From: Candidatus Poribacteria bacterium | GTDB lineage: Bacteria > Poribacteria > WGA-4E > WGA-3G | DNA length: 64,000 bases | Assembly: GCA_965197475.1 (NCBI GenBank) | Contig: CBDANF010000002.1 | Span: 960,001-1,024,000 of the forward strand | Direction of reading: 5' to 3' | Shown: in pieces, positions 1,685 to 8,479 of the stretch | Numbering within the stretch: position 1 is the stretch's first letter | How the letters are laid out: each line of letters opens with the position of its first letter | Made by a program: the position numbers and the translations under genes | Notes under the pieces: model-generated | Told to the model about the DNA's origin: nothing | Seen by the model: only the letters and a program-made list of their open reading frames with translations | The model's database searches: none

Positions 1685-1805
1685 TAGGATTTACGCAGGT
1701 TGCTCTTTTTACGCGCTATTTGGTTTGTAGTAGCGCAAATCCATTGCACGTTCTTGGTGATTTACGATCAATTTCGCCACGGAATCCAAATTTGCGTAAG
1801 TCCTA
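1685..1805. mobile_element. IS701-end-derived MITE (121 bp)
   Basis: TAGGATTTACGCA (1685-97) ... TGCGTAAGTCCTA (1793-1805). The same end motif CAGGACTTACGCA occurs at the end of the IS701 remnant (43842). Confidence 0.65.
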
Positions 1806-1843
1806 TGGGTATTACTTGTTTCAAGAAAGGAGGACAAGAAACT

Positions 1844-4800
1844 ATGATCAACAAAATGAGAAATTGGACTGCCGTAGCAATGTTGTTCCTGTTCCTGTTG
1901 CCGCTGGCATCAGCCCAACTCACGCCAAACATCTGGAAGAAATTCATCGGCGAACCGGTCCCCGCGGGAACCCCTGATTTAATTGATTATTCTTATGCTG
2001 GCTATAAAAATGGCGTAGAAGGCATCCCCGAAGATTTTGCGTATACAGTGTTTAATGTTACTGATTATGGGGCAAATCCTGATGATGGTATCTCTGATAC
2101 TGCTGGTATTAGAGATGCCCTTGATGCAGCTGCAGTAGGAAACAGTATCGTCTTTTTTCCTCCCGGTCAATATGATGTATTACTTGATGATGATGTAAAA
2201 GATCCATTTATAGTCAGAGGACATCATGTTATTCTTCGTGGAAGTGGTGCTCAAGGTGCTGGCAGAGGTGGAACAACTATAAAGATGCACAATCAGCTTA
2301 CAGATCCTTATCAAAATCAATACCTGTTTATTCCACAAGGAGGTGATGCTGGTTGGGATGGAGCCCCACGCGTTAATGGTTCATTTCCAAGTGGAATAAA
2401 ATACTTTGATGTAAATAAGACAACACCACTTATAGGACGCAAATATATTGCAATAAGGGCATCCAATCTACTTGGAGAGGATTTTGATAAATATTCTTCA
2501 CGACCCTTAAAGAATATTTCTGAATTTTATACAGGAATTCATAAAGGTGTTAGTATTAGAGAATATCATGAGATTGATAGAATCGAAGGTAACCGTGTCT
2601 ATCTAAAAGCCCCACTCGTAACGCATCTAAAACACGGTATGATTGTCGTTTGGACCGATTTATCAGAGGGTATCGGTTTTGAAAATTTGCATATTGATGG
2701 TGGTTATGATGAAATTTATAGGCATTTACACTATTTTGGACGTGGTGGAATTAATTTATCTGGTACTGCACATTCATGGATCCGCCGATGTCGGTTTTCT
2801 AATGTTATTTCGTCATTTAGAGTGACTAACAGTTACGGCACTTCGGCAGTTAGCAATATAGTTGATGGTAGATTTGGACATAATTTAAGTGATTTTGTTG
2901 GTTCAACATATTGCTTGATCGCTTTTTTACATGATTATTCGGATAGAGGTATGTGGCATGGCGCGAATGTCTCGCATTGGTCGGTTGGAAATGTAGTATG
3001 GCATGTTAGGGGTCCATCAGCAAAGGGTCCTGATGTGCACGGTGCGCAGCCGCGCCATACGCTGTTCGATAATTACAGAAGTGTCAATCATCATACCAGC
3101 AGTGGTGGTGGAGGTTCCATGCCTAATCACCTTGATGGATATGTTCGCTGGAATAACACTGCTAATTCGAGTGTGACTCTTGACTTATGGGGACGTAGTG
3201 GAGGACGACGTTTGTTGGTCACGCAAGGTTCCCTGATAGGATACAAGGCGTTGGGTGGTGCCATCCCCCGCGACGCCTACTTTGAGGGATACGGCACGCA
3301 TGTCTCTCCTAATTCACTTTACGAGGCACAACTGGAGCACCGATTAGGGACACTGCCTGCGTGGGTAGATGCTTACAAAAAGATGGACAGAAAATTCTTG
3401 CAAAGCATTGTCATAGATCCAGGACACCCCATCACACCTTCCGATGAAGATGTCAACTTGGATCCATCTCAGGGTGGTCCGAAAATTAGCGGTCCGTGGT
3501 TATGGGTGCTGGTACCAGATGAACATTTTGACGGTACTACAGATCTGCTGGCAAAAGCAAGCGGTGGTAATGTTTCAGAAACGCAAATTGCTACTGACGG
3601 TGTGATAGTCGGAGACAAAGTTGGAGACTATGAATGGACACCTCTCAAAATAGGCAGTGGTGGTAATAACCTCAACGATATGGTGAGTAACCTCGGTTGG
3701 AACGGAAACAATCGTGTCATTTACGGTTTCATCACCTTAAATACACTGAAAGAACAGAACACAAAAATGTTTGTTGGAAGTGATGATTCCGTAAGGGTGT
3801 GGCTCAATGGAGAACTTGTTCACGATAAAATAAAAAGGCGGAGTGCAAGTGATTACAAAGAATCTTTTCCCGTTACCCTGAGGAAAGGAAAGAATTCGTT
3901 ATTAGTAGCTATTGACAATTACACCGGTGGATGGAGCGGTTTTTTTGGCTTTCAAGCAGATGCGGAATATACGGTACAAACTTTTTCTGGCATCGGATAT
4001 GCCATTTTCATTGATGATATCTTTAGCGGTGATACGTTTACTCTTGACATCTACGCAGAAGATGTGCCCGATTTAGTAGAATGGCAGTTTGACATAGCGT
4101 TTGATCCTTTACTGCTTGAAGCAATTGAGGTCCGCAAAGGTTATTTTTTAGAGTCGGAGGGTGGGACAACCTTCTTCCAGAATGGTGCAATTGATAATCA
4201 ATCCGGAAAAATAATAGGTCTTAGTGAAGTGGAACCTAATGGAAACAGTGTCAGTGGTACAGGCTTGCTGCTTACCGTAACCTTTTTAGCCAAAGCGGGT
4301 GGTAAGACACAATTGACACTCAATAACTTTCGATTCGGTGATAGTATTGGGCAATCAATCCCTACCGGACCACATGAAACTACGATTTCGGTGAAAGGAA
4401 AGCTGGCGTGGGATGTCAACGGAGATGGACAAGTAAACATTTTAGATATAGTTCTCGTTGCTCAAGACTTAGGGAAGCCTTCATCCGTTAATTCGCGAAC
4501 GGATGTCAACGGCGACGAGACTGTTAACATCTTAGACCTCGTCCTTGTGGCACAACACATGGGTGAAACAGAAATCGGAGCAGCACCTACTACTATCGCA
4601 ATAGAAGACGTAAAAGGATTAGACCCGGCAACCGTTCAAGCGTGGATAGAGCAGGCACGTGCTGAAGATGATGGATCACTCGCTTTCCAAAAGGGCATTG
4701 CAAATCTTGAAAGGCTTCTGGCATTGTTAATCCCTAAAAAGACAGCGTTGCTGCAGAACTATCCAAATCCGTTTAATCCCGAGACATGGATACCGTATCA

Positions 4801-5029
4801 ACTCTCCGAACCGGCGAAGGTTACCCTGACAATCTACGCTGTGAATGGAACAAAGGTTCGGACGTTAGCATTAGGACTGATGCCTGCAGGTATCTATCAA
4901 AGTCGCAGTCGCGCTGCCTATTGGGATGGAAAAAATGACGTAGGTGAGTCTATTGCGAGCGGTATCTATTTCTACACGCTAACCGTAGGAGGGTTTAAGT
5001 CAACGCGTAAGATGTTGATTCTGAAATAG
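1844..5029 (+). CDS. Secreted multidomain protein: beta-helix polysaccharide lyase-like (DUF4955/pectate-lyase-3-like) domain, beta-sandwich, cohesin, dockerin/EF-hand and FlgD/T9SS-like C-terminal domain
   Basis: RBS AAGGAGG precedes ATG 1844 and a signal peptide follows. Motifs: LIDYSYAGY, FNVTDYGANPDDGISDT, FFPPGQY, two DVNGDxxVNILDxVLVA repeats, and LLQNYPNPFNPETWIPYQL...SGIYFYTL...TRKMLILK. Confidence 0.8.
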   Translation: MINKMRNWTAVAMLFLFLLPLASAQLTPNIWKKFIGEPVPAGTPDLIDYSYAGYKNGVEGIPEDFAYTVFNVTDYGANPDDGISDTAGIRDALDAAAVGNSIVFFPPGQYDVLLDDDVKDPFIVRGHHVILRGSGAQGAGRGGTTIKMHNQLTDPYQNQYLFIPQGGDAGWDGAPRVNGSFPSGIKYFDVNKTTPLIGRKYIAIRASNLLGEDFDKYSSRPLKNISEFYTGIHKGVSIREYHEIDRIEGNRVYLKAPLVTHLKHGMIVVWTDLSEGIGFENLHIDGGYDEIYRHLHYFGRGGINLSGTAHSWIRRCRFSNVISSFRVTNSYGTSAVSNIVDGRFGHNLSDFVGSTYCLIAFLHDYSDRGMWHGANVSHWSVGNVVWHVRGPSAKGPDVHGAQPRHTLFDNYRSVNHHTSSGGGGSMPNHLDGYVRWNNTANSSVTLDLWGRSGGRRLLVTQGSLIGYKALGGAIPRDAYFEGYGTHVSPNSLYEAQLEHRLGTLPAWVDAYKKMDRKFLQSIVIDPGHPITPSDEDVNLDPSQGGPKISGPWLWVLVPDEHFDGTTDLLAKASGGNVSETQIATDGVIVGDKVGDYEWTPLKIGSGGNNLNDMVSNLGWNGNNRVIYGFITLNTLKEQNTKMFVGSDDSVRVWLNGELVHDKIKRRSASDYKESFPVTLRKGKNSLLVAIDNYTGGWSGFFGFQADAEYTVQTFSGIGYAIFIDDIFSGDTFTLDIYAEDVPDLVEWQFDIAFDPLLLEAIEVRKGYFLESEGGTTFFQNGAIDNQSGKIIGLSEVEPNGNSVSGTGLLLTVTFLAKAGGKTQLTLNNFRFGDSIGQSIPTGPHETTISVKGKLAWDVNGDGQVNILDIVLVAQDLGKPSSVNSRTDVNGDETVNILDLVLVAQHMGETEIGAAPTTIAIEDVKGLDPATVQAWIEQARAEDDGSLAFQKGIANLERLLALLIPKKTALLQNYPNPFNPETWIPYQLSEPAKVTLTIYAVNGTKVRTLALGLMPAGIYQSRSRAAYWDGKNDVGESIASGIYFYTLTVGGFKSTRKMLILK

Positions 5030-5039
5030 TATCAAATGA

Positions 5040-5155
5040 CCATAGGATAGCTGGAAGGCTGATGTTTATTGGCTTCCCAGCGATCGTTGATGAGTGGGTT
5101 GCGTTGGGATCGCGAGCATCCTCTTTGAGAAATGATGCGTTTAGCGATAAACGTG
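5040..5155 (-). ncRNA. Candidate structured small RNA in the non-coding end of the DUF1670 element
   Basis: Lies downstream of a consensus promoter. Four consecutive stems are visible: CGTTTA/TAAACG, GCATC/GATGC, CGATC/GATCG with a 22-nt A/C-rich loop, and GCTGG/CCAGC. There is no expression evidence. Confidence 0.45.
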
Positions 5156-5160
5156 TCTAA

Positions 5161-5189
5161 AGTATAGCAAAACCAGTAGCGGTTGTCAA
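5161..5189 (-). promoter_or_regulatory. Consensus sigma70 promoter pointing to the left end of the element
   Basis: Minus strand TTGACA (5189-84)-N17-TATACT (5166-61), with TG just upstream of the -10 (extended -10). Confidence 0.8.
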
Positions 5190-5256
5190 CCATATTTTCA
5201 AGGCACCTGCCCCGGTTTTGCGAAGTAAAGTTCGTCGGGAACATAGGATTAGGGTC

Positions 5257-6141
5257 TCATTGGGCTTCTCCTTGGTGAGTGGCTTCATCGTTTGAGTCTG
5301 AATTGGCAAGGTCTGCATCTATGGCTTGGAGTTGGTGCTGCGGTATGAGGTCGAGATATTGAGAGATCACACGTTTAGAAAGTCGTGTAATCTGTGAGAT
5401 TTTATCAATATCTGCGGTTGCTTTCCGAACGACTTTGACGCTCTCATAATCGCGAATGTATCGGTCAACTGCCTCCTTAGAGTGTTTGGTCTTTGCGGCA
5501 ATCCTGGGGGTGAGATGTCCTTGAAGATAGAGGGTTATGATCTCTTTCTTATGGGTAATAGCCCCCGATAAGTCATGGATATTGCCACGGGTGGGCAAGA
5601 GTTCTCCAGTGGTTTTTTGCCATTCATTAACATAATCACAGACAACGGCATCGCAGACATTGAGCAAAACTGCCAAGTCGAGTTGTGTCAATAATGCCCC
5701 TTGGTCATAAGCTTGATGACACCAGCGGACCAAGCGATTGATCCGCAATTGCCGGGAGGTGAAACCGTTGCGAAAGGATTCAATATCCTCTGCGGCGAGG
5801 TAAGTCAGGATGACGGGTTTCATGCGGGTTTTGACGATGGACTTTCCTCTTTCTGGATGCTCTTCAATAGGGACGGCCATCCAAACGAGTTGTCCATAAC
5901 TCAAGAAACGCTCATCCGGGAGTTGATCGCCGGTGGCGAGTTTCTCCAAAGGAAGGGTAATCACGAAATAGTCTTCAACGGTCTTAAGAATATCATCAAC
6001 AATGGCGGTGGCAGTGACTTCGCCTTTGTCATAACCATAGTCATTGAGAAAGCGGTGAATGAGCAACTGTCGTAGGGACTTATCGTTGATGCGTCTGAAT
6101 TTCTTCTCGTTGATTTGCGTGCGGGTTAGAGGTTTGCTCAT
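5257..6141 (-). CDS. DUF1670-like HTH-containing protein (paralogue B)
   Basis: Motif QAYDQGALLTQLDLAVLL...LPTRGNIHDL...THKKEII.LY..G...HSKEAVDRYIRDY. Its start overlaps the stop of paralogue A (ATGA coupling). Confidence 0.8.
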   Translation of the reverse strand: MSKPLTRTQINEKKFRRINDKSLRQLLIHRFLNDYGYDKGEVTATAIVDDILKTVEDYFVITLPLEKLATGDQLPDERFLSYGQLVWMAVPIEEHPERGKSIVKTRMKPVILTYLAAEDIESFRNGFTSRQLRINRLVRWCHQAYDQGALLTQLDLAVLLNVCDAVVCDYVNEWQKTTGELLPTRGNIHDLSGAITHKKEIITLYLQGHLTPRIAAKTKHSKEAVDRYIRDYESVKVVRKATADIDKISQITRLSKRVISQYLDLIPQHQLQAIDADLANSDSNDEATHQGEAQ

Positions 6142-6938
6142 GAGAGGTCCCCCTTTTTTGTGTCCTCAGGTTCTGGGTGAAGGAGTTGGGTTATGCGATC
6201 TGTGTGTTGGTATTCCTCATAGAGTGAGAGATACTCGCGGATCAACCGGTCAGATAGATGGGTGATCAGGCGTATCTGTGCGTTAGGAAAGCCTTGATGA
6301 TGGAGCGTAGCGACTTGTGTAAAGTCTTTCAAGTAGCGGTAGACAGCTCGTTCGCTGTGGTTCGTCTTTTTCTCGATTTCGGTGAAGGTATAGGCTTTGA
6401 AATATAACTCCAGGACCTGGGTTTTATGAGAAGTGCCGGGGCCCATGTCGTGTTTCGTCCCGCGCGTCATAACGAAATACCCATCCTGCTTCAAGTGTCG
6501 AATGTCGCGTTTGACTGTAGCAGGACTGGTGGTTAATAATACAGCTAAATCCTCGTAGCTCAGTAAGGCATCTTGGTCATAAGCTTCTTGGGTCAATCGG
6601 AGGATCCGATGCCGTCTGAGTCCTGCGAGACCATAATTCGCTAAGACTTCAAGATCGGCGTTTGTGTCATTGAGAGTTAGCCGACAGGAAACTTTTTTCG
6701 CTAAAGCGATATGTTTACCTGCGGGTTCCTCTGCGGCGACTGCCTCGTAGCAGATTTGCCCTGATGTCAGGTGCACATCGGCGTGTTGTTCAAAGTAGGT
6801 GGAAATCTGTTTATAGTAGGCTTCAGCAACGAGAGGCATTAGATTAAAGTCTGCTGAAATCTTCTGAATAATCGCGGCTCTGGCATTCTTGGATTCGAGC
6901 CGAGTGATACCGTAAGCGGTATCCTTCTTGCGGTTCAT
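6138..6938 (-). CDS. DUF1670-like HTH-containing protein (paralogue A)
   Basis: Motif EAYDQDALLSYEDLAVLL.TSPATVKRDI...TRGTKHDMGPGTSHK...HSERAVYRYLKDF. A GGAGG RBS favours a start at 6938 (MNRKK). Confidence 0.8.
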   Translation of the reverse strand: MNRKKDTAYGITRLESKNARAAIIQKISADFNLMPLVAEAYYKQISTYFEQHADVHLTSGQICYEAVAAEEPAGKHIALAKKVSCRLTLNDTNADLEVLANYGLAGLRRHRILRLTQEAYDQDALLSYEDLAVLLTTSPATVKRDIRHLKQDGYFVMTRGTKHDMGPGTSHKTQVLELYFKAYTFTEIEKKTNHSERAVYRYLKDFTQVATLHHQGFPNAQIRLITHLSDRLIREYLSLYEEYQHTDRITQLLHPEPEDTKKGDLS

Positions 6939-7039
6939 ATTGACCTCCATGAATAGATTATCGGGGATCCGAGGACATCTACTCGTTAGTTTAACGAATA
7001 CTAATAGTATAACTCATGGGGTCATTTGATATAAACTAT

Positions 7040-7064
7040 AAATAGCTCGCGGCTATTTCTTTCT
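7040..7064 (+). terminator. Weak intrinsic-terminator-like hairpin, probably the original terminator of gene 1844-5029
   Basis: AAATAGC-tcgcg-GCTATTT followed by CTTTCT. Confidence 0.45.
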
Positions 7065-7068
7065 GTCC

Positions 7069-7116
7069 GAGGGAACTCCGAATCGCGACCAGTCGGGAAT
7101 CGGAGTTCCCTCCTAC
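7069..7116. repeat. REP-like palindrome ending in CTAC
   Basis: GAGGGAACTCCG ... CGGAGTTCCCTC-CTAC. Related to 9946-9972, 13617-13643 and 28610-28652. Confidence 0.7.
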
Positions 7117-7141
7117 AACTTCTAAAAAGGAGAACTAATAC

Positions 7142-8479
7142 ATGAAAACGATACTATTTCTCATACTTTTACTATTAGCTTTTGTAACACTTACGTTTGT
7201 GCCGAATAGTTTTGCACAAGACGCTGCAGATGAAGTTATCTCAATACCGGACCCAACTTTAAAAGCGAGACTCTGTAAAGTATTTAATAAGCCATCTAAT
7301 TGCATAATCACAAAACAGGATATGGAAGGGTTAACGGAACTTGACATCATTGTCCTTAACCCCAGTGATGTCAGAGACAAAAACATTATAGGGCTTGAAT
7401 ACGCAATTAATTTAACAAAGTTTGAAATCCATCGCACGTATGTTAGCGATATAATGCCACTCTCAGGGTTAACAAAATTAACATGGTTACAGATGGCTGC
7501 TAATAAAATCATGGACATCAAACCCTTGGCAGAATTGACAAATCTGGAATTTTTACACTTGTCGACCAATAAAATTAGTGATGTCACACCCCTATCAGGG
7601 CTAACAAAATTAACAGGATTATTGCTTAGCAATAATCAAATCACGGACATCAGTCCGCTTGCCGAGTTGACAAATCTGAAGAATTTATGGCTTGATGGTA
7701 ATCAAATCATAGACATCAGTCCGCTTACTGCTTTGACAAATTTGACGCTTTTAGGTCTTAATGGTAATCAAATCATAGACATCAGTCCGCTTACTGCTTT
7801 GACAAATTTGACGCTTTTAGGTCTTAATGGTAATCAAATCACAGACACGGACCTTAACCTCCTCACTGTGTTTACAAATCTGACAAATTTAAGACTTAAT
7901 GATAATCAAATCACGGACATCAGTCCGCTTGCCGAGTTGACAAATCTGAAGTGGTTAAGTCTTCATGGCAACCAAATTAGCGATGTGAGCCCTCTTACAG
8001 AACTCACAAATCTCAAAACATTAAGAATTTACGACAATCCGATTAAGAACCGAAAACCGCTCCTCGCGCTATTGCAACAGAATCCGGGTATAAAAATTTA
8101 TCTTAAAAACAGTAGGGAAGCACTGCCAGTTACCCTATCCCATTTCAGTGCCGAACACACCGATGCAGGCATTATCCTCAAATGGACAACGGAGTCAGAG
8201 GTAGATAACGCGGGTTTTTATATCTACCGCAGCAAAACAAAGGACGGTGAATTCAAGGTTGTCAACACCGAACTCATTCAAGGTGCTGGCACTACAGGTG
8301 AACGCAATGAATACACGTGGACAGATACCACCGCTAAACCGCATACCTTCTACTATTATCGGATAGAAGATGTGTCGTATGCTGGAGAACAGGAGCAGTT
8401 GGCAACCGTTCGGTTGAGAGGGTTTGTATCCGCAAGCGGTAAACGGACTACAAGTTGGGCAGATTTGAAATCCCAGTAG
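7142..8479 (+). CDS. Secreted internalin-like leucine-rich-repeat protein with C-terminal Ig/FN3-like domain
   Basis: Signal peptide, IPDPTLK cap, about ten 22-aa LxxLxLxxNQIxDISPL repeats, and an LPVTLSHF...WTTESEVDNAGF...TTSWADLK tail. Confidence 0.9.
   Translation: MKTILFLILLLLAFVTLTFVPNSFAQDAADEVISIPDPTLKARLCKVFNKPSNCIITKQDMEGLTELDIIVLNPSDVRDKNIIGLEYAINLTKFEIHRTYVSDIMPLSGLTKLTWLQMAANKIMDIKPLAELTNLEFLHLSTNKISDVTPLSGLTKLTGLLLSNNQITDISPLAELTNLKNLWLDGNQIIDISPLTALTNLTLLGLNGNQIIDISPLTALTNLTLLGLNGNQITDTDLNLLTVFTNLTNLRLNDNQITDISPLAELTNLKWLSLHGNQISDVSPLTELTNLKTLRIYDNPIKNRKPLLALLQQNPGIKIYLKNSREALPVTLSHFSAEHTDAGIILKWTTESEVDNAGFYIYRSKTKDGEFKVVNTELIQGAGTTGERNEYTWTDTTAKPHTFYYYRIEDVSYAGEQEQLATVRLRGFVSASGKRTTSWADLKSQ
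7695..7841 (+). repeat. Exact 66-bp tandem duplication inside the LRR gene
   Basis: Units 7695-7760 and 7761-7826 are identical, with a partial third unit to 7841. Segments 7632-7681 and 7902-7951 are also identical. Confidence 0.85.

What the first reader, a model, noticed from the sequence alone, without database searches (positions are those of the whole stretch)
5040..5256. Own promoter and structured small RNA in the non-coding end of the DUF1670 element
Seen: downstream of the two ORFs lies a near-perfect promoter, TTGACA-N17-TATACT (minus strand, 5189-5161), with no credible ORF after it. The ~115 nt that follow fold into four consecutive stems, two with large A/C-rich loops (CCAACGCAACCCACTCATCAAC and CAATAAACATCA). 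The region is bracketed by a CATAGGAT direct repeat (5041, 5242), and a further GCAAAACC/GGTTTTGC stem (5167-74/5214-21) overlaps the promoter. Known: IS110/IS1111 and IS200/605 elements encode guide RNAs in non-coding ends. Inference: the element may express an RNA cofactor. One loop is complementary at 9/10 positions to the flank 10-20 bp from the insertion point (5061-70 GATGTTTATT vs 5011-20 GATGTTGATT), but a match this short could be chance.
Basis: partly seen in the sequence, partly recalled or inferred. Interest (0 to 1): 0.8.

Follow-up and report, generated by a model that had tools for sequence, protein, structure and literature searches.

The report
Outward promoter in jumping-gene end

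Summary
The promoter is real. TTGACA-N17-TATACT (5189-5161, minus strand) has the form of this genome's own tRNA promoters. It is kept in 19 of 20 copies here and in 49 of 50 distinct Poribacteria right ends, while its spacer varies. It lies in the 231-nt non-coding right end of a 2,014-bp element (5026-7039) with two DUF1670 genes. This element inserts, in one orientation, inside the last Lys codon of type IX secretion (T9SS) cargo genes.

The "structured RNA" is only partly borne out. The ~130-nt leader folds slightly better than shuffles, and one hairpin next to the terminal repeat recurs. Compensatory changes are at shuffle level, G-U shows no excess over A-C, and Rfam has no match. The loop/target likeness is not significant.

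Relatives in other phyla hit the same target with unrelated or far shorter right ends, so this module is not a required guide RNA. A second lineage has its own outward promoter 40-60 nt from the tip. The shared trait is therefore outward transcription across the right end. Its role is inferred, not shown.

The scan has noted this element family before on other DNA. The right-end promoter is new to it.

The parts
5026..7039 (-). The whole mobile element, 2,014 bp. Termini are ATAG...CTAT. It is flanked by AA/AA (5024-5025 and 7040-7041), which is either a 2-bp target duplication or a 2-nt ambiguity of the junction.
   Evidence: 19 near-full copies plus 1 internally deleted copy in the own genome share exactly these limits. 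The left-end flank always reads AA-R-T-RR, the host gene's original last codon and stop.
5184..5189 (-). -35 box TTGACA of the outward right-end promoter (P_RE).
   Evidence: In 41 distinct Poribacteria right ends, 5 of its 6 positions are at least 90% conserved.
5161..5169 (-). Extended -10: TG (5169-5168), then c, then TATACT (5166-5161).
   Evidence: All 6 positions of the -10 are at least 90% conserved. The same hexamers stand upstream of tRNA-Leu, tRNA-Gln and tRNA-Val in this genome.
5153..5156 (-). Predicted transcription start, 5-8 nt after the -10. Inferred, not measured.
   Evidence: Spacing rule for sigma-70 promoters (established knowledge). RNA-library contigs cannot show a start.
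5102..5153 (-). Nested hairpin module: CGUU/AACG, AUCGC/GCGAU, GCAUC..UUCU/AGAG..GAUGC. It is dispensable, because five multi-copy Poribacteria variants lack it.
   Evidence: It is deleted in L044-L048. Per-helix pairing is 67-95% with few double changes.
5086..5101 (-).
   Evidence: Unpaired in the minimum-free-energy fold. Variable among relatives.
5046..5085 (-). Hairpin H3: GAU-GCUGGGA-GC, a 12-nt loop CAAUAAACAUCA (5071-5060), then GC-UUCCAGC-AUC. It is present in all Poribacteria groups.
   Evidence: z -1.5 to -3.2 in four variants. L038 gains a TTT insertion that makes a perfect GGAAACC/GGUUUCC stem. In L143 the 3' arm is changed to fit the GUUGCG 5' arm. The loop and 3' arm are conserved as sequence while the 5' arm is not.
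5026..5041 (.). Right terminal inverted repeat ATAGTATCAAATGACC (plus-strand reading). Together with 5024-5025 it rebuilds AAA TAG of the host gene.
   Evidence: 12-nt perfect inverted repeat with 7020-7031. Invariant in all right ends, including those from other phyla.
5257..6141 (-). orfB, 294 aa, DUF1670.
   Evidence: PF07900, E 1.2e-61. The AlphaFold2 model (pLDDT 86.9) has only winged-helix and sigma-region-4-like helix-turn-helix modules recognised.
6138..6950 (-). orfA, 270 aa as listed, DUF1670 paralogue. The start is probably the second ATG at 6938, behind GGAGG.
   Evidence: PF07900, E 4e-62. Sequence.
7020..7039 (.). Left terminal inverted repeat. It has 4 extra bases relative to the right one and overlaps the -35 of the weaker orfA promoter (TTGTAT-N17-TATACT in consensus copies).
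1700..5029 (+). Host target gene: a secreted protein with a T9SS C-terminal sorting domain. Its last codon holds the insertion, and P_RE points into it antisense.
   Evidence: Pfam hits Por_Secre_tail, CHU_C, FlgD_ig, dockerin and cohesin. 18 of 50 such gene ends in this genome are occupied, all in the same orientation.

Best explanation
The region is the right end of an undescribed two-gene (DUF1670) insertion sequence. It contains a genuine housekeeping-type promoter, P_RE, that points out of the element.

Transcription should start at about 5156-5153 and run about 130 nt through the right end. That path crosses a dispensable hairpin module, a C/A-rich linker, hairpin H3 and the terminal inverted repeat. 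It then crosses the element tip into the antisense strand of the T9SS cargo gene whose last codon the element occupies.

The last ~50 nt (tip to H3 loop) are conserved as sequence. They are most simply the end that the element's DNA-binding proteins recognise. The 5' arm of H3 is free to vary.

The transcript is not a programmable guide of the IS110/IS1111 kind, and this module is not needed for choosing the target.

What selection keeps is outward transcription across the right tip. My preferred role (inferred, about 30% on its own) is that P_RE reads into the left end and drives orfA-orfB whenever the right end is joined to a left end, as in a circle or tandem intermediate. This would bypass the weak orfA promoter, whose -35 overlaps the left terminal repeat. 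The other candidate roles are a protein-bound or regulatory leader RNA, and a shield against the host gene's convergent transcription.
For: SHOWN
- The promoter scores 11 of 12 with TG.
- 17 of 20 right ends in the genome have exactly TTGACA-N17-TATACT and 2 have N18. Only the internally deleted copy lacks the -35.
- 49 of the 71 distinct right ends held match the promoter pattern. The 22 that do not are 21 from other phyla plus that deleted copy.
- In 41 distinct Poribacteria right ends, 11 of 12 hexamer positions are at least 90% conserved, against 3 of 13 spacer positions.
- 16 of 48 tRNA genes have a site of at least 10 of 12 in the 120 nt upstream, against 3 of 48 on the opposite strand. 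Several are exactly TTGACA-17-TATACT.
- A second lineage (L162, L194, L222, L224, L145, L152, L215) has its own outward TTGACA-17/18-TAATAT or TATCAT only about 40-60 nt from the tip, with otherwise unrelated sequence. Four of the 7 (L162, L222, L224, L215) have an upstream ORF 62-78% identical to held DUF1670 fragments; L194, L152 and L145 gave no blastx hit.
- In 77 metagenomic right ends, promoter-like sites face outward in 14 and inward in 4. Shuffles give 5.5 +/- 2.6, maximum 13.
- Same target with unrelated or short right ends in other phyla.
- Terminal block: 42 of the last 52 columns are at least 90% conserved, against 2 of the 17 columns of the H3 5' arm region.
- Contigs of RNA libraries from 4 studies cover the right end. 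This shows presence only.

INFERRED: the start site, the read-out into the flank, and every proposed role.
Against: - No transcript start, end or strand could be seen, because only contigs were available.
- No right-end-to-left-end junction was found in 176 Poribacteria genomes or in the metagenome collection. The circle or tandem role therefore has no direct support. Assemblies rarely keep such forms, so this is weak evidence either way.
- The circle idea does not explain why about 130 nt of leader, above all the H3 loop, are so well conserved in Poribacteria.
- H3 is maintained through an insertion (L038) and an arm change (L143), which hints at selection on pairing.
- Within H3 and the inner part of H2, G-U cells outnumber A-C cells 59 to 25 (my sum), although over all helices the count is 67 to 51.
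- The 14-versus-4 outward excess counts related sequences, and two of the 14 sit inside terminator-like hairpins.
- Ignavibacteria-type right ends show no clear promoter of a type I can score.
Confidence: 0.6

Rival explanations
1. Guide or cofactor RNA. The right-end RNA binds the DUF1670 proteins, and its loops pair with the target, the conserved end of T9SS cargo genes, to direct insertion as in IS110/IS1111 bridge or seek RNAs.
For: - There is a conserved promoter with no ORF behind it.
- The non-coding region lies downstream of the genes, as in IS1111 (abstract).
- The H3 loop is at least 90% conserved at 11 of 12 positions. Its complement GATGTTTATT fits the conserved target positions R-A-T-G-n-T-n-A-T-h.
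- No catalytic or RNA-free explanation of targeting exists: OrfB shows only DNA-binding folds.
Against: - The same target is used by relatives whose right ends are unrelated or only 63-80 nt long.
- One loop sequence serves targets that differ at many positions within one genome.
- 202 of 500 shuffles match the target matrix as well.
- Covariation is at shuffle level: 5 pairs with double changes against 4.8. RNAalifold finds no common structure over 29 sequences.
- No DEDD or RuvC domain is present.
Confidence: 0.1
2. Regulatory or protein-titrating small RNA. The ~130-nt leader is a stable RNA that binds OrfA/OrfB or a host factor, or pairs with the orfAB mRNA, and so tunes transposition. This would be a functional analogue of IS10 RNA-OUT rather than a guide.
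For: - The leader sequence is conserved beyond the promoter.
- The fold is better than shuffles (z -2.35), and H3 recurs in all Poribacteria groups.
- There is an 18-nt stretch, 15 of 18 complementary, between the RNA's 5' end (5157-5140) and orfA codons (6705-6688). My estimate is about 0.08 expected by chance.
Against: - No terminator follows H3, so a discrete small RNA is not evident.
- The hairpin module is deleted in active-looking multi-copy variants (L044-L048).
- The second lineage leaves only about 40 nt of element RNA.
- The duplex energy with the orfA leader is not unusual (20 of 300 shuffles as good), and it is driven by the terminal repeats.
Confidence: 0.15
3. Insulator against the host gene. 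Because the element always sits right after a secreted-protein gene and faces it, host transcription would run antisense through orfB-orfA. An outward promoter and hairpins at the right end would block or collide with it.
For: - Orientation is fixed: 18 of 18 occupied T9SS gene ends have the right end next to the gene.
- The insertion lies upstream of the host gene's own terminator.
- Outward promoters occur in two lineages.
Against: - No terminator-like site for the incoming (plus) strand lies in 5026-5260.
- Lineages from other phyla sit in the same position without a recognisable promoter.
- It would also lower expression of the host gene, which fits badly with an insertion that otherwise preserves the protein exactly.
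Confidence: 0.1
4. No RNA-level function. The conserved blocks are DNA sites (protein-binding sub-terminal repeats such as the recurring CATC/GATG words), and the promoter-like hexamers are a by-product or a neutral passenger.
For: - Conservation of H3 is asymmetric: the loop and 3' arm are kept but the 5' arm is not.
- There is no G-U over A-C excess overall.
- CATC/GATG occurs 5 times in the 135-nt leader and also in the target (AAGATG) and in left-end palindromes. This count is post hoc.
Against: - Both hexamers, the TG and the 17-nt spacing are kept while the spacer sequence changes.
- They are identical in form to the tRNA promoters of the same genome.
- An independent outward promoter exists in a second lineage.
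- A strong promoter is unlikely to persist in about 50 diverged copies without selection.
Confidence: 0.05

Closest known systems
Outward-facing promoters in insertion-sequence ends (for example ISAba1, ISEcp1, IS1999; recalled, not read here)
   Same: A complete -35/-10 pair sits inside an element end and points out of the element.
   Different: Those promoters switch on a neighbouring gene in the same orientation and are usually seen as a side effect. Here the orientation to the neighbour is fixed and antisense. The promoter lies 130 nt from the tip behind a conserved leader, and it is conserved across about 50 diverged copies.
IS1111/IS110 seek or bridge RNA (Siddiquee et al. preprint 10.1101/2024.04.26.591405, abstract read; Durrant et al. 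2024, recalled)
   Same: A site-specific insertion sequence with a sizeable non-coding region downstream of its genes (as in IS1111) that carries its own promoter.
   Different: There is no DEDD transposase. No significant target or donor match exists in the RNA. Unrelated non-coding regions go with the same target, instead of different regions with different targets. The terminal inverted repeats are of a different kind.
IS200/IS605 right-end RNA (omega RNA or reRNA of TnpB/IscB; recalled, not read here)
   Same: A transcript that starts inside the right end and runs across the tip, so that its 3' part is copied from the flank.
   Different: There is no TnpB or IscB gene. The element has terminal inverted repeats and a fixed AA at both junctions, whereas IS200/IS605 is known (recalled) for sub-terminal hairpins without inverted repeats. 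No RNA has been shown.
IS10 pOUT / RNA-OUT antisense control (recalled; PMC5006887 seen only in the listing)
   Same: An element-borne promoter that makes a small folded non-coding RNA rather than a protein.
   Different: RNA-OUT overlaps and opposes the transposase mRNA start. P_RE is at the far end, runs in the same direction as orfA-orfB, and has no significant complementarity to their leader.
Junction promoters of circle-forming insertion sequences (IS911, IS30, IS21; recalled)
   Same: The proposed logic is the same: transcription from one end drives the element's genes once the two ends are joined.
   Different: In those elements the promoter is assembled from a -35 in one end and a -10 in the other. 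Here both boxes are in the right end, and no joined form was found.

Membership tests
Pfam DUF1670 (PF07900) two-gene insertion element | Two tandem DUF1670 genes between terminal inverted repeats, in many copies | tested here: met
   E values 1.2e-61 and 4e-62. 20 copies in the genome. Inverted repeat found.
Pfam DUF1670 (PF07900) two-gene insertion element | Insertion in one orientation at the last codon of T9SS C-terminal-domain genes | tested here: met
   18 of 50 such gene ends are filled, all with the right end next to the gene. 2 of 19 copies lie at other AARTA sites.
IS110/IS1111 with bridge or seek RNA | DEDD (RuvC-like) transposase | tested here: not met
   The Pfam scan of both proteins at E up to 0.01 lists only DUF1670 and helix-turn-helix families.
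IS110/IS1111 with bridge or seek RNA | The non-coding-region RNA carries short stretches matching the target | tested here: not met
   The best target-matrix hit in the right end is the H3 loop, but 202 of 500 shuffles score as well.
IS110/IS1111 with bridge or seek RNA | Different non-coding regions go with different targets (programmability) | tested here: not met
   Unrelated and short right ends all abut the same T9SS gene end.
IS200/IS605 omega RNA / reRNA | A TnpB or IscB RuvC nuclease gene next to the RNA | tested here: not met
   No such Pfam hit.
IS200/IS605 omega RNA / reRNA | A right-end transcript that extends into the flank | not testable with these tools
   The promoter direction fits, but only contigs of RNA libraries were available.
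IS10-type antisense RNA | The RNA is complementary to the 5' end of the transposase mRNA | tested here: not met
   P_RE is at the opposite end and runs in the same direction. The duplex energy is matched by 20 of 300 shuffles.
Outward promoter of an insertion-sequence end | A complete sigma-70-type -35/-10 near an end, directed outward | tested here: met
   The same form stands at the genome's tRNA genes.
Junction promoter (IS911, IS30, IS21) | -35 in one end and -10 in the other, assembled when the ends abut | tested here: not met
   Both boxes lie in the right end, 135-165 nt from the tip.
Any Rfam family | A covariance-model match | tested here: not met
   Only two chance-level rows (E 6.5 and 7.1), both outside the region.

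The most novel reading that the evidence does not exclude
The outward transcript is a flank-templated guide. Its 5' part (H3 plus the terminal repeat) would be a handle held by the DUF1670 proteins. Its 3' part is copied from the adjacent T9SS gene end. Because that coding sequence is similar in all paralogues, the RNA would steer new copies to the last codon of other T9SS cargo genes.

This would be an omega-RNA-like logic in an element with no known nuclease or recombinase. It would explain why two lineages keep an outward promoter at different distances from the tip, and why targeting tolerates wobble differences.
Probability: 0.07. Interest if true: 0.9.

Novelty: new variant of a known kind. 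Interest (0 to 1): 0.5.

Why it matters
The element family has no paper that I could find. There are 0 papers with 'DUF1670' or 'PF07900', and nothing relevant under T9SS plus insertion sequence or under Poribacteria plus insertion sequence.

The family shows no recognisable DNA-cutting enzyme, yet it inserts to the base inside the last codon of one class of genes across many phyla. Anything conserved in its ends is therefore a lead to an unknown transposition mechanism.

This work removes one attractive explanation, an IS110-style guide RNA in the right end. It replaces it with a sharper fact: a housekeeping-strength promoter aimed across the right tip, found independently in two lineages. 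That is directly testable with a reporter and a transposition assay.

It also matters for the host. In this genome 18 of 50 T9SS cargo genes would receive antisense transcription at their 3' ends.

Tried and rejected
- Rfam scan of 4900-7200 at E up to 10: nothing relevant.
- RNAalifold on 29 right ends: no common structure, 3 pairs, -0.14 kcal/mol. Subgroups gave -8.0 (19 sequences), -22.4 (5) and -11.5 (5) kcal/mol.
- Sponge metatranscriptome runs X1, X5, X6 and X7 laid on 4800-7250. Contigs cover the element, but their breaks at 5154-5189 overlap by about 30 nt at a variant site and say nothing about a start. Depth cannot be ranked. No 'goes back' joint was listed.
- Left end against right end local alignment, to test for a duplicated leader: 36 of 500 shuffles score as well.
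- RNA duplex with the orfA leader and with the target sense strand: not unusual, 20 of 300 and 259 of 300 shuffles as good.
- Right-end-tip plus left-end-tip pattern with a 0-12 nt gap: 0 of 176 Poribacteria genomes and 0 in metagenome contigs.
- Census of the terminal repeat in the own genome: 42 hits, of which 39 lie in the 20 copies and 3 are unrelated. There is no swarm of miniature derivatives and no right-end module away from the element.
- The search for related loci with 30- and 9-sequence alignments failed for lack of a conserved stretch. A 4-sequence alignment worked.
- Small peptide behind AGAGG-ATG: rejected because its length varies between 10 and 17 codons and it is absent in the deletion variants.
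- Fold searches of OrfB found no catalytic fold. Foldseek had no hit at E up to 0.001, and VIA-align's best Z was 6.4 on helix-turn-helix domains. The N-terminal 125 residues were barely tested.
- A possible TTGTTC-N18-TATAAC outward promoter in Ignavibacteria-type right ends could not be judged in such AT-rich sequence.
Full report
WHAT IS THERE

The finding lies in the last 231 non-coding bases of a mobile element that runs on the minus strand from 7039 to 5026 (2,014 bp). The element carries two overlapping genes, orfA (6950-6138) and orfB (6141-5257). Both match Pfam DUF1670, with E values of 4e-62 and 1.2e-61, plus helix-turn-helix families and nothing else.

The own genome holds 19 near-full copies at 91-100% identity and one internally deleted copy. 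Names attached to near-identical proteins and contigs say Candidatus Poribacteria, a sponge symbiont phylum. Of 176 genomes of the phylum, 46 have an OrfB match at E up to 1e-10, and many have several copies.

LIMITS OF THE ELEMENT AND ITS TARGET

- All copies end in ...GGTCATTTGATACTATTT on the gene-sense strand of the element and begin with TAYTTATAGTTTGTATCAAATGACC.
- In 50 gene ends that encode a T9SS C-terminal sorting domain, 18 are occupied. All 18 read AAA TAG TA|TCAAATGACC.
- The 32 empty ones end in AAG TAA (11), AAG TAG (7), AAA TAA (6), AAA TAG (5), AAA TGA (2) or CGT TAA (1).
- At the other end of each copy the flank reads CTAT|AA-R-T-RR. This is the gene's original last codon and stop, in the same variety.

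So the element proper is ATAG...CTAT (5026-7039), flanked by AA on both sides. It sits inside the last Lys codon and supplies A+TAG itself, so the host protein is unchanged.

Orientation is fixed, with the right end next to the gene in 18 of 18 cases. Two of the 19 full copies lie at other sites that also contain AARTA.

This agrees with earlier notes of this scan on other genomes, which I re-derived here from this genome.

THE PROMOTER

TTGACA (5189-5184), a 17-nt spacer and TATACT (5166-5161), with TG at 5169-5168, score 11 of 12. This is the best such site between 4900 and 7200. Three lines make it a working promoter rather than a chance match.

1. It is kept. 17 of 20 right ends in this genome have exactly this form, 2 have an 18-nt spacer, and only the internally deleted copy has lost the -35. 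Among the 71 distinct right ends held at that point, 49 match the promoter pattern. The 22 that do not are 21 from other phyla and that one deleted copy.

2. Selection is on the boxes, not on the region. In 41 distinct Poribacteria right ends, 11 of the 12 hexamer positions and the TG are at least 90% conserved, against 3 of 13 spacer positions. The boxes persist in variants where the orfB stop codon abuts the -35.

3. It is the organism's own housekeeping form. 16 of 48 tRNA genes have a site of at least 10 of 12 within 120 nt upstream, against 3 of 48 on the opposite strand. Those of tRNA-Leu, tRNA-Gln and tRNA-Val are exactly TTGACA-17-TATACT.

No conserved ORF follows the promoter:
- The 70-codon ORF across the region starts upstream of the promoter and is broken by 1-nt indels in relatives.
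- A 17-codon ORF behind AGAGG-ATG shrinks to 10 codons or is deleted in relatives.

THE RNA STRUCTURE

The 134 nt from 5156 to 5023 fold at -27.8 kcal/mol against -20.4 +/- 3.2 for shuffles (z -2.35). The fold is a nested irregular hairpin (5153-5102), a C/A-rich linker, and a hairpin H3 (5085-5046) whose 12-nt loop is CAAUAAACAUCA.

Evidence that H3 is maintained:
- Single-sequence folds of 29 distinct right ends nearly all contain H3.
- Four variants fold with z between -1.5 and -3.2.
- One variant has a TTT insertion that creates a perfect GGAAACC/GGUUUCC stem (L038).
- One metagenomic variant (L143) has a changed 3' arm that fits its GUUGCG 5' arm.

Evidence against a conserved RNA structure:
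- RNAalifold finds no common structure over the 29 sequences.
- On my four-helix structure, 81% of cells pair, against 32-48% when the partners are slid. That advantage is expected, because the structure was derived from these sequences.
- Pairs with changes on both sides number 5 of 35, against 4.8 in shuffles.
- G-U cells (67) do not clearly outnumber A-C cells (51), so nothing marks the minus strand as the folded one.
- Conservation is lopsided. 42 of the last 52 columns (tip to H3 loop) are at least 90% conserved, but only 2 of the 17 columns of the H3 5' arm region. That is what a ~50-nt protein-recognised transposon end looks like.
- The first hairpin module is missing altogether from five distinct variants whose genomes hold many copies (L044-L048).
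- Rfam has no match.

THE LOOP/TARGET LIKENESS

The loop's complement, GATGTTTATT, fits the conserved positions of the target (codons Lys-Met-x-Ile: R-A-T-G-n-T-n-A-T-h). A matrix built from 71 distinct insertion flanks does pick the loop as its best hit in the right end. However, 202 of 500 shuffles of the right end score as well. The one loop also serves targets that differ at many positions within this genome.

THE WIDER FAMILY

Relatives with OrfB 51-65% identical occur in contigs labelled Ignavibacteria, Melioribacteraceae, Calditrichota, Saprospiraceae, Verrucomicrobia, Zixibacteria and Neomarinimicrobiota.
- Apart from the Poribacteria outlier L101, L103 (no recognisable tip) and L133, these end in TGGTCAT(T/A)TGA(T/C)ACTATTT, with single-base variants in L102, L116 and L119. 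That tip is followed, except in L133, by the antisense of a T9SS gene end.
- Their non-coding right ends are unrelated to the Poribacteria module. They are 63-80 nt in L129, L117 and L105, and 38 nt in L133, whose flank is not a T9SS gene end. The 54-nt right end of L128 reflects an internal deletion and was set aside. They are about 130 nt, with a terminator-like hairpin just after the stop, in Ignavibacteria.
These comprise 100 distinct right ends, of which 4 are Poribacteria-like.

Same target with different or nearly absent non-coding right ends is the opposite of what the IS1111/IS110 seek-RNA system shows. There, each non-coding region goes with its own target (abstract). The Poribacteria module is therefore not a required guide.

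A SECOND OUTWARD PROMOTER

One metagenomic lineage (L162, L194, L222, L224, L145, and L152/L215) has its own outward TTGACA-17/18-TAATAT or TATCAT. In four of them (L162, L222, L224, L215) the upstream ORF is 62-78% identical to held DUF1670 fragments; L194, L152 and L145 gave no blastx hit.
- The promoter lies only about 40-60 nt from the tip.
- Its -10 sits inside a palindrome, GATGTCTG...CAGACATC.
- Too little element RNA is left to fold.

Over 77 metagenomic right ends, promoter-like sites of at least 10 of 12 face outward in 14 and inward in 4. Shuffles give 5.5 +/- 2.6, with a maximum of 13. These sequences are related, and two of the 14 lie in terminator hairpins, so the excess is suggestive only.

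What the two lineages share is not a structure but transcription across the right tip.

THE PROTEINS

An AlphaFold2 model of OrfB (pLDDT 86.9) has no Foldseek match at E up to 0.001. VIA-align's best scores (Z up to 6.4) are winged-helix (residues 128-192) and sigma-region-4/LuxR/resolvase-type helix-turn-helix (193-245) domains. The first 125 residues were barely tested. No nuclease, recombinase or known RNA-guided fold is recognised, so the catalytic mechanism stays open.

EXPRESSION DATA

Contigs of RNA libraries from four sponge studies cover both genes and the right end. Contigs show neither strand, start nor level, and DNA carry-over cannot be excluded. No joined right-end/left-end form appeared there, in 176 Poribacteria genomes, or in the metagenome collection.

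HOW IT MOST LIKELY WORKS

Shown:
- a conserved, housekeeping-type promoter pointing out of the right end;
- a conserved ~50-nt terminal block;
- a recurring but weakly supported hairpin;
- fixed antisense orientation to the host gene.

Inferred:
- An RNA starts near 5153-5156 and runs across the tip into the antisense of the T9SS gene.
- My preferred role (about 30%) is that it drives orfA-orfB when a right end is joined to a left end. This would bypass the weak orfA promoter, whose -35 (TTGTAT) lies in the left terminal repeat.
- A bolder variant, a flank-templated guide like the omega RNA of IS605 elements, is not excluded (about 7%).

NOVELTY

Outward promoters in insertion-sequence ends are known. 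This one is a new variant by its setting:
- the family is undescribed (0 papers for DUF1670 or PF07900; nothing relevant);
- it has exact site- and orientation-specific insertion;
- it always faces antisense to the neighbouring gene;
- it recurs independently in a second lineage.

The scan had already noted the element family on other DNA. The right-end promoter had not been noted.

Noticed in passing
window 7064-7117: A 26+26-nt palindromic, REP-like unit just left of the element. About 18 related copies (75-100% identical; the best is a 29-nt perfect match) are spread over the genome's two large contigs.
   Followed up: partly
window 7150-7160 and 5023-5033: GATACTATTTC, the element's right tip plus one flank base, recurs as a perfect inverted 11-mer inside the signal-peptide codons of the leucine-rich-repeat gene (7142-8479), about 110 nt beyond the left end. 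It may be chance or a scar. No further right-end likeness lies around it.
   Followed up: partly
own genome C3:94034-94561 (L020/L021): An internally deleted copy, left 296 nt joined to the right ~180 nt. It is still inserted at a T9SS gene end. It has lost the -35 but keeps the -10 of the right-end promoter.
   Followed up: partly
window 5055 joined to 7005 (run X7): One RNA-library contig joins about 30 nt of the right end to about 35 nt of the left end. This would be a ~65-bp miniature derivative in another sponge sample.
   Followed up: no
L152, L178, L184, L202, L215 (metagenome contigs): Short units of about 80-130 bp with a left-repeat-like word and the right tip, sitting at T9SS gene ends or the like. 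They are probably non-autonomous miniature derivatives of the family.
   Followed up: no
proteins P0133, P0135, P0141, P0143: Proteins of 930-952 residues in which the DUF1670 query matches three separate stretches. These are fused triple forms of the family.
   Followed up: no
own genome, 50 T9SS C-terminal-domain gene ends: More than a third (18 of 50) of the detected T9SS cargo genes carry this element in their last codon. Each would receive antisense transcription from the right-end promoter.
   Followed up: partly
window 5214-5223 and 5165-5174 equivalents in other copies: In most copies the arms flanking the -35 form a perfect 10-bp inverted repeat, GCAAAACCGG / CCGGTTTTGC. The window copy has 8 bp. 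It could be an operator, but it is absent where the orfB stop abuts the -35.
   Followed up: partly
L104-L130 (Ignavibacteria-type right ends): A conserved AT-rich block, TTGTTC-N18-TATAAC-TACTTAG, lies about 30 nt before the terminal repeat and resembles the TATACT-TTAG of the Poribacteria promoter. Whether it is a promoter could not be judged.
   Followed up: no
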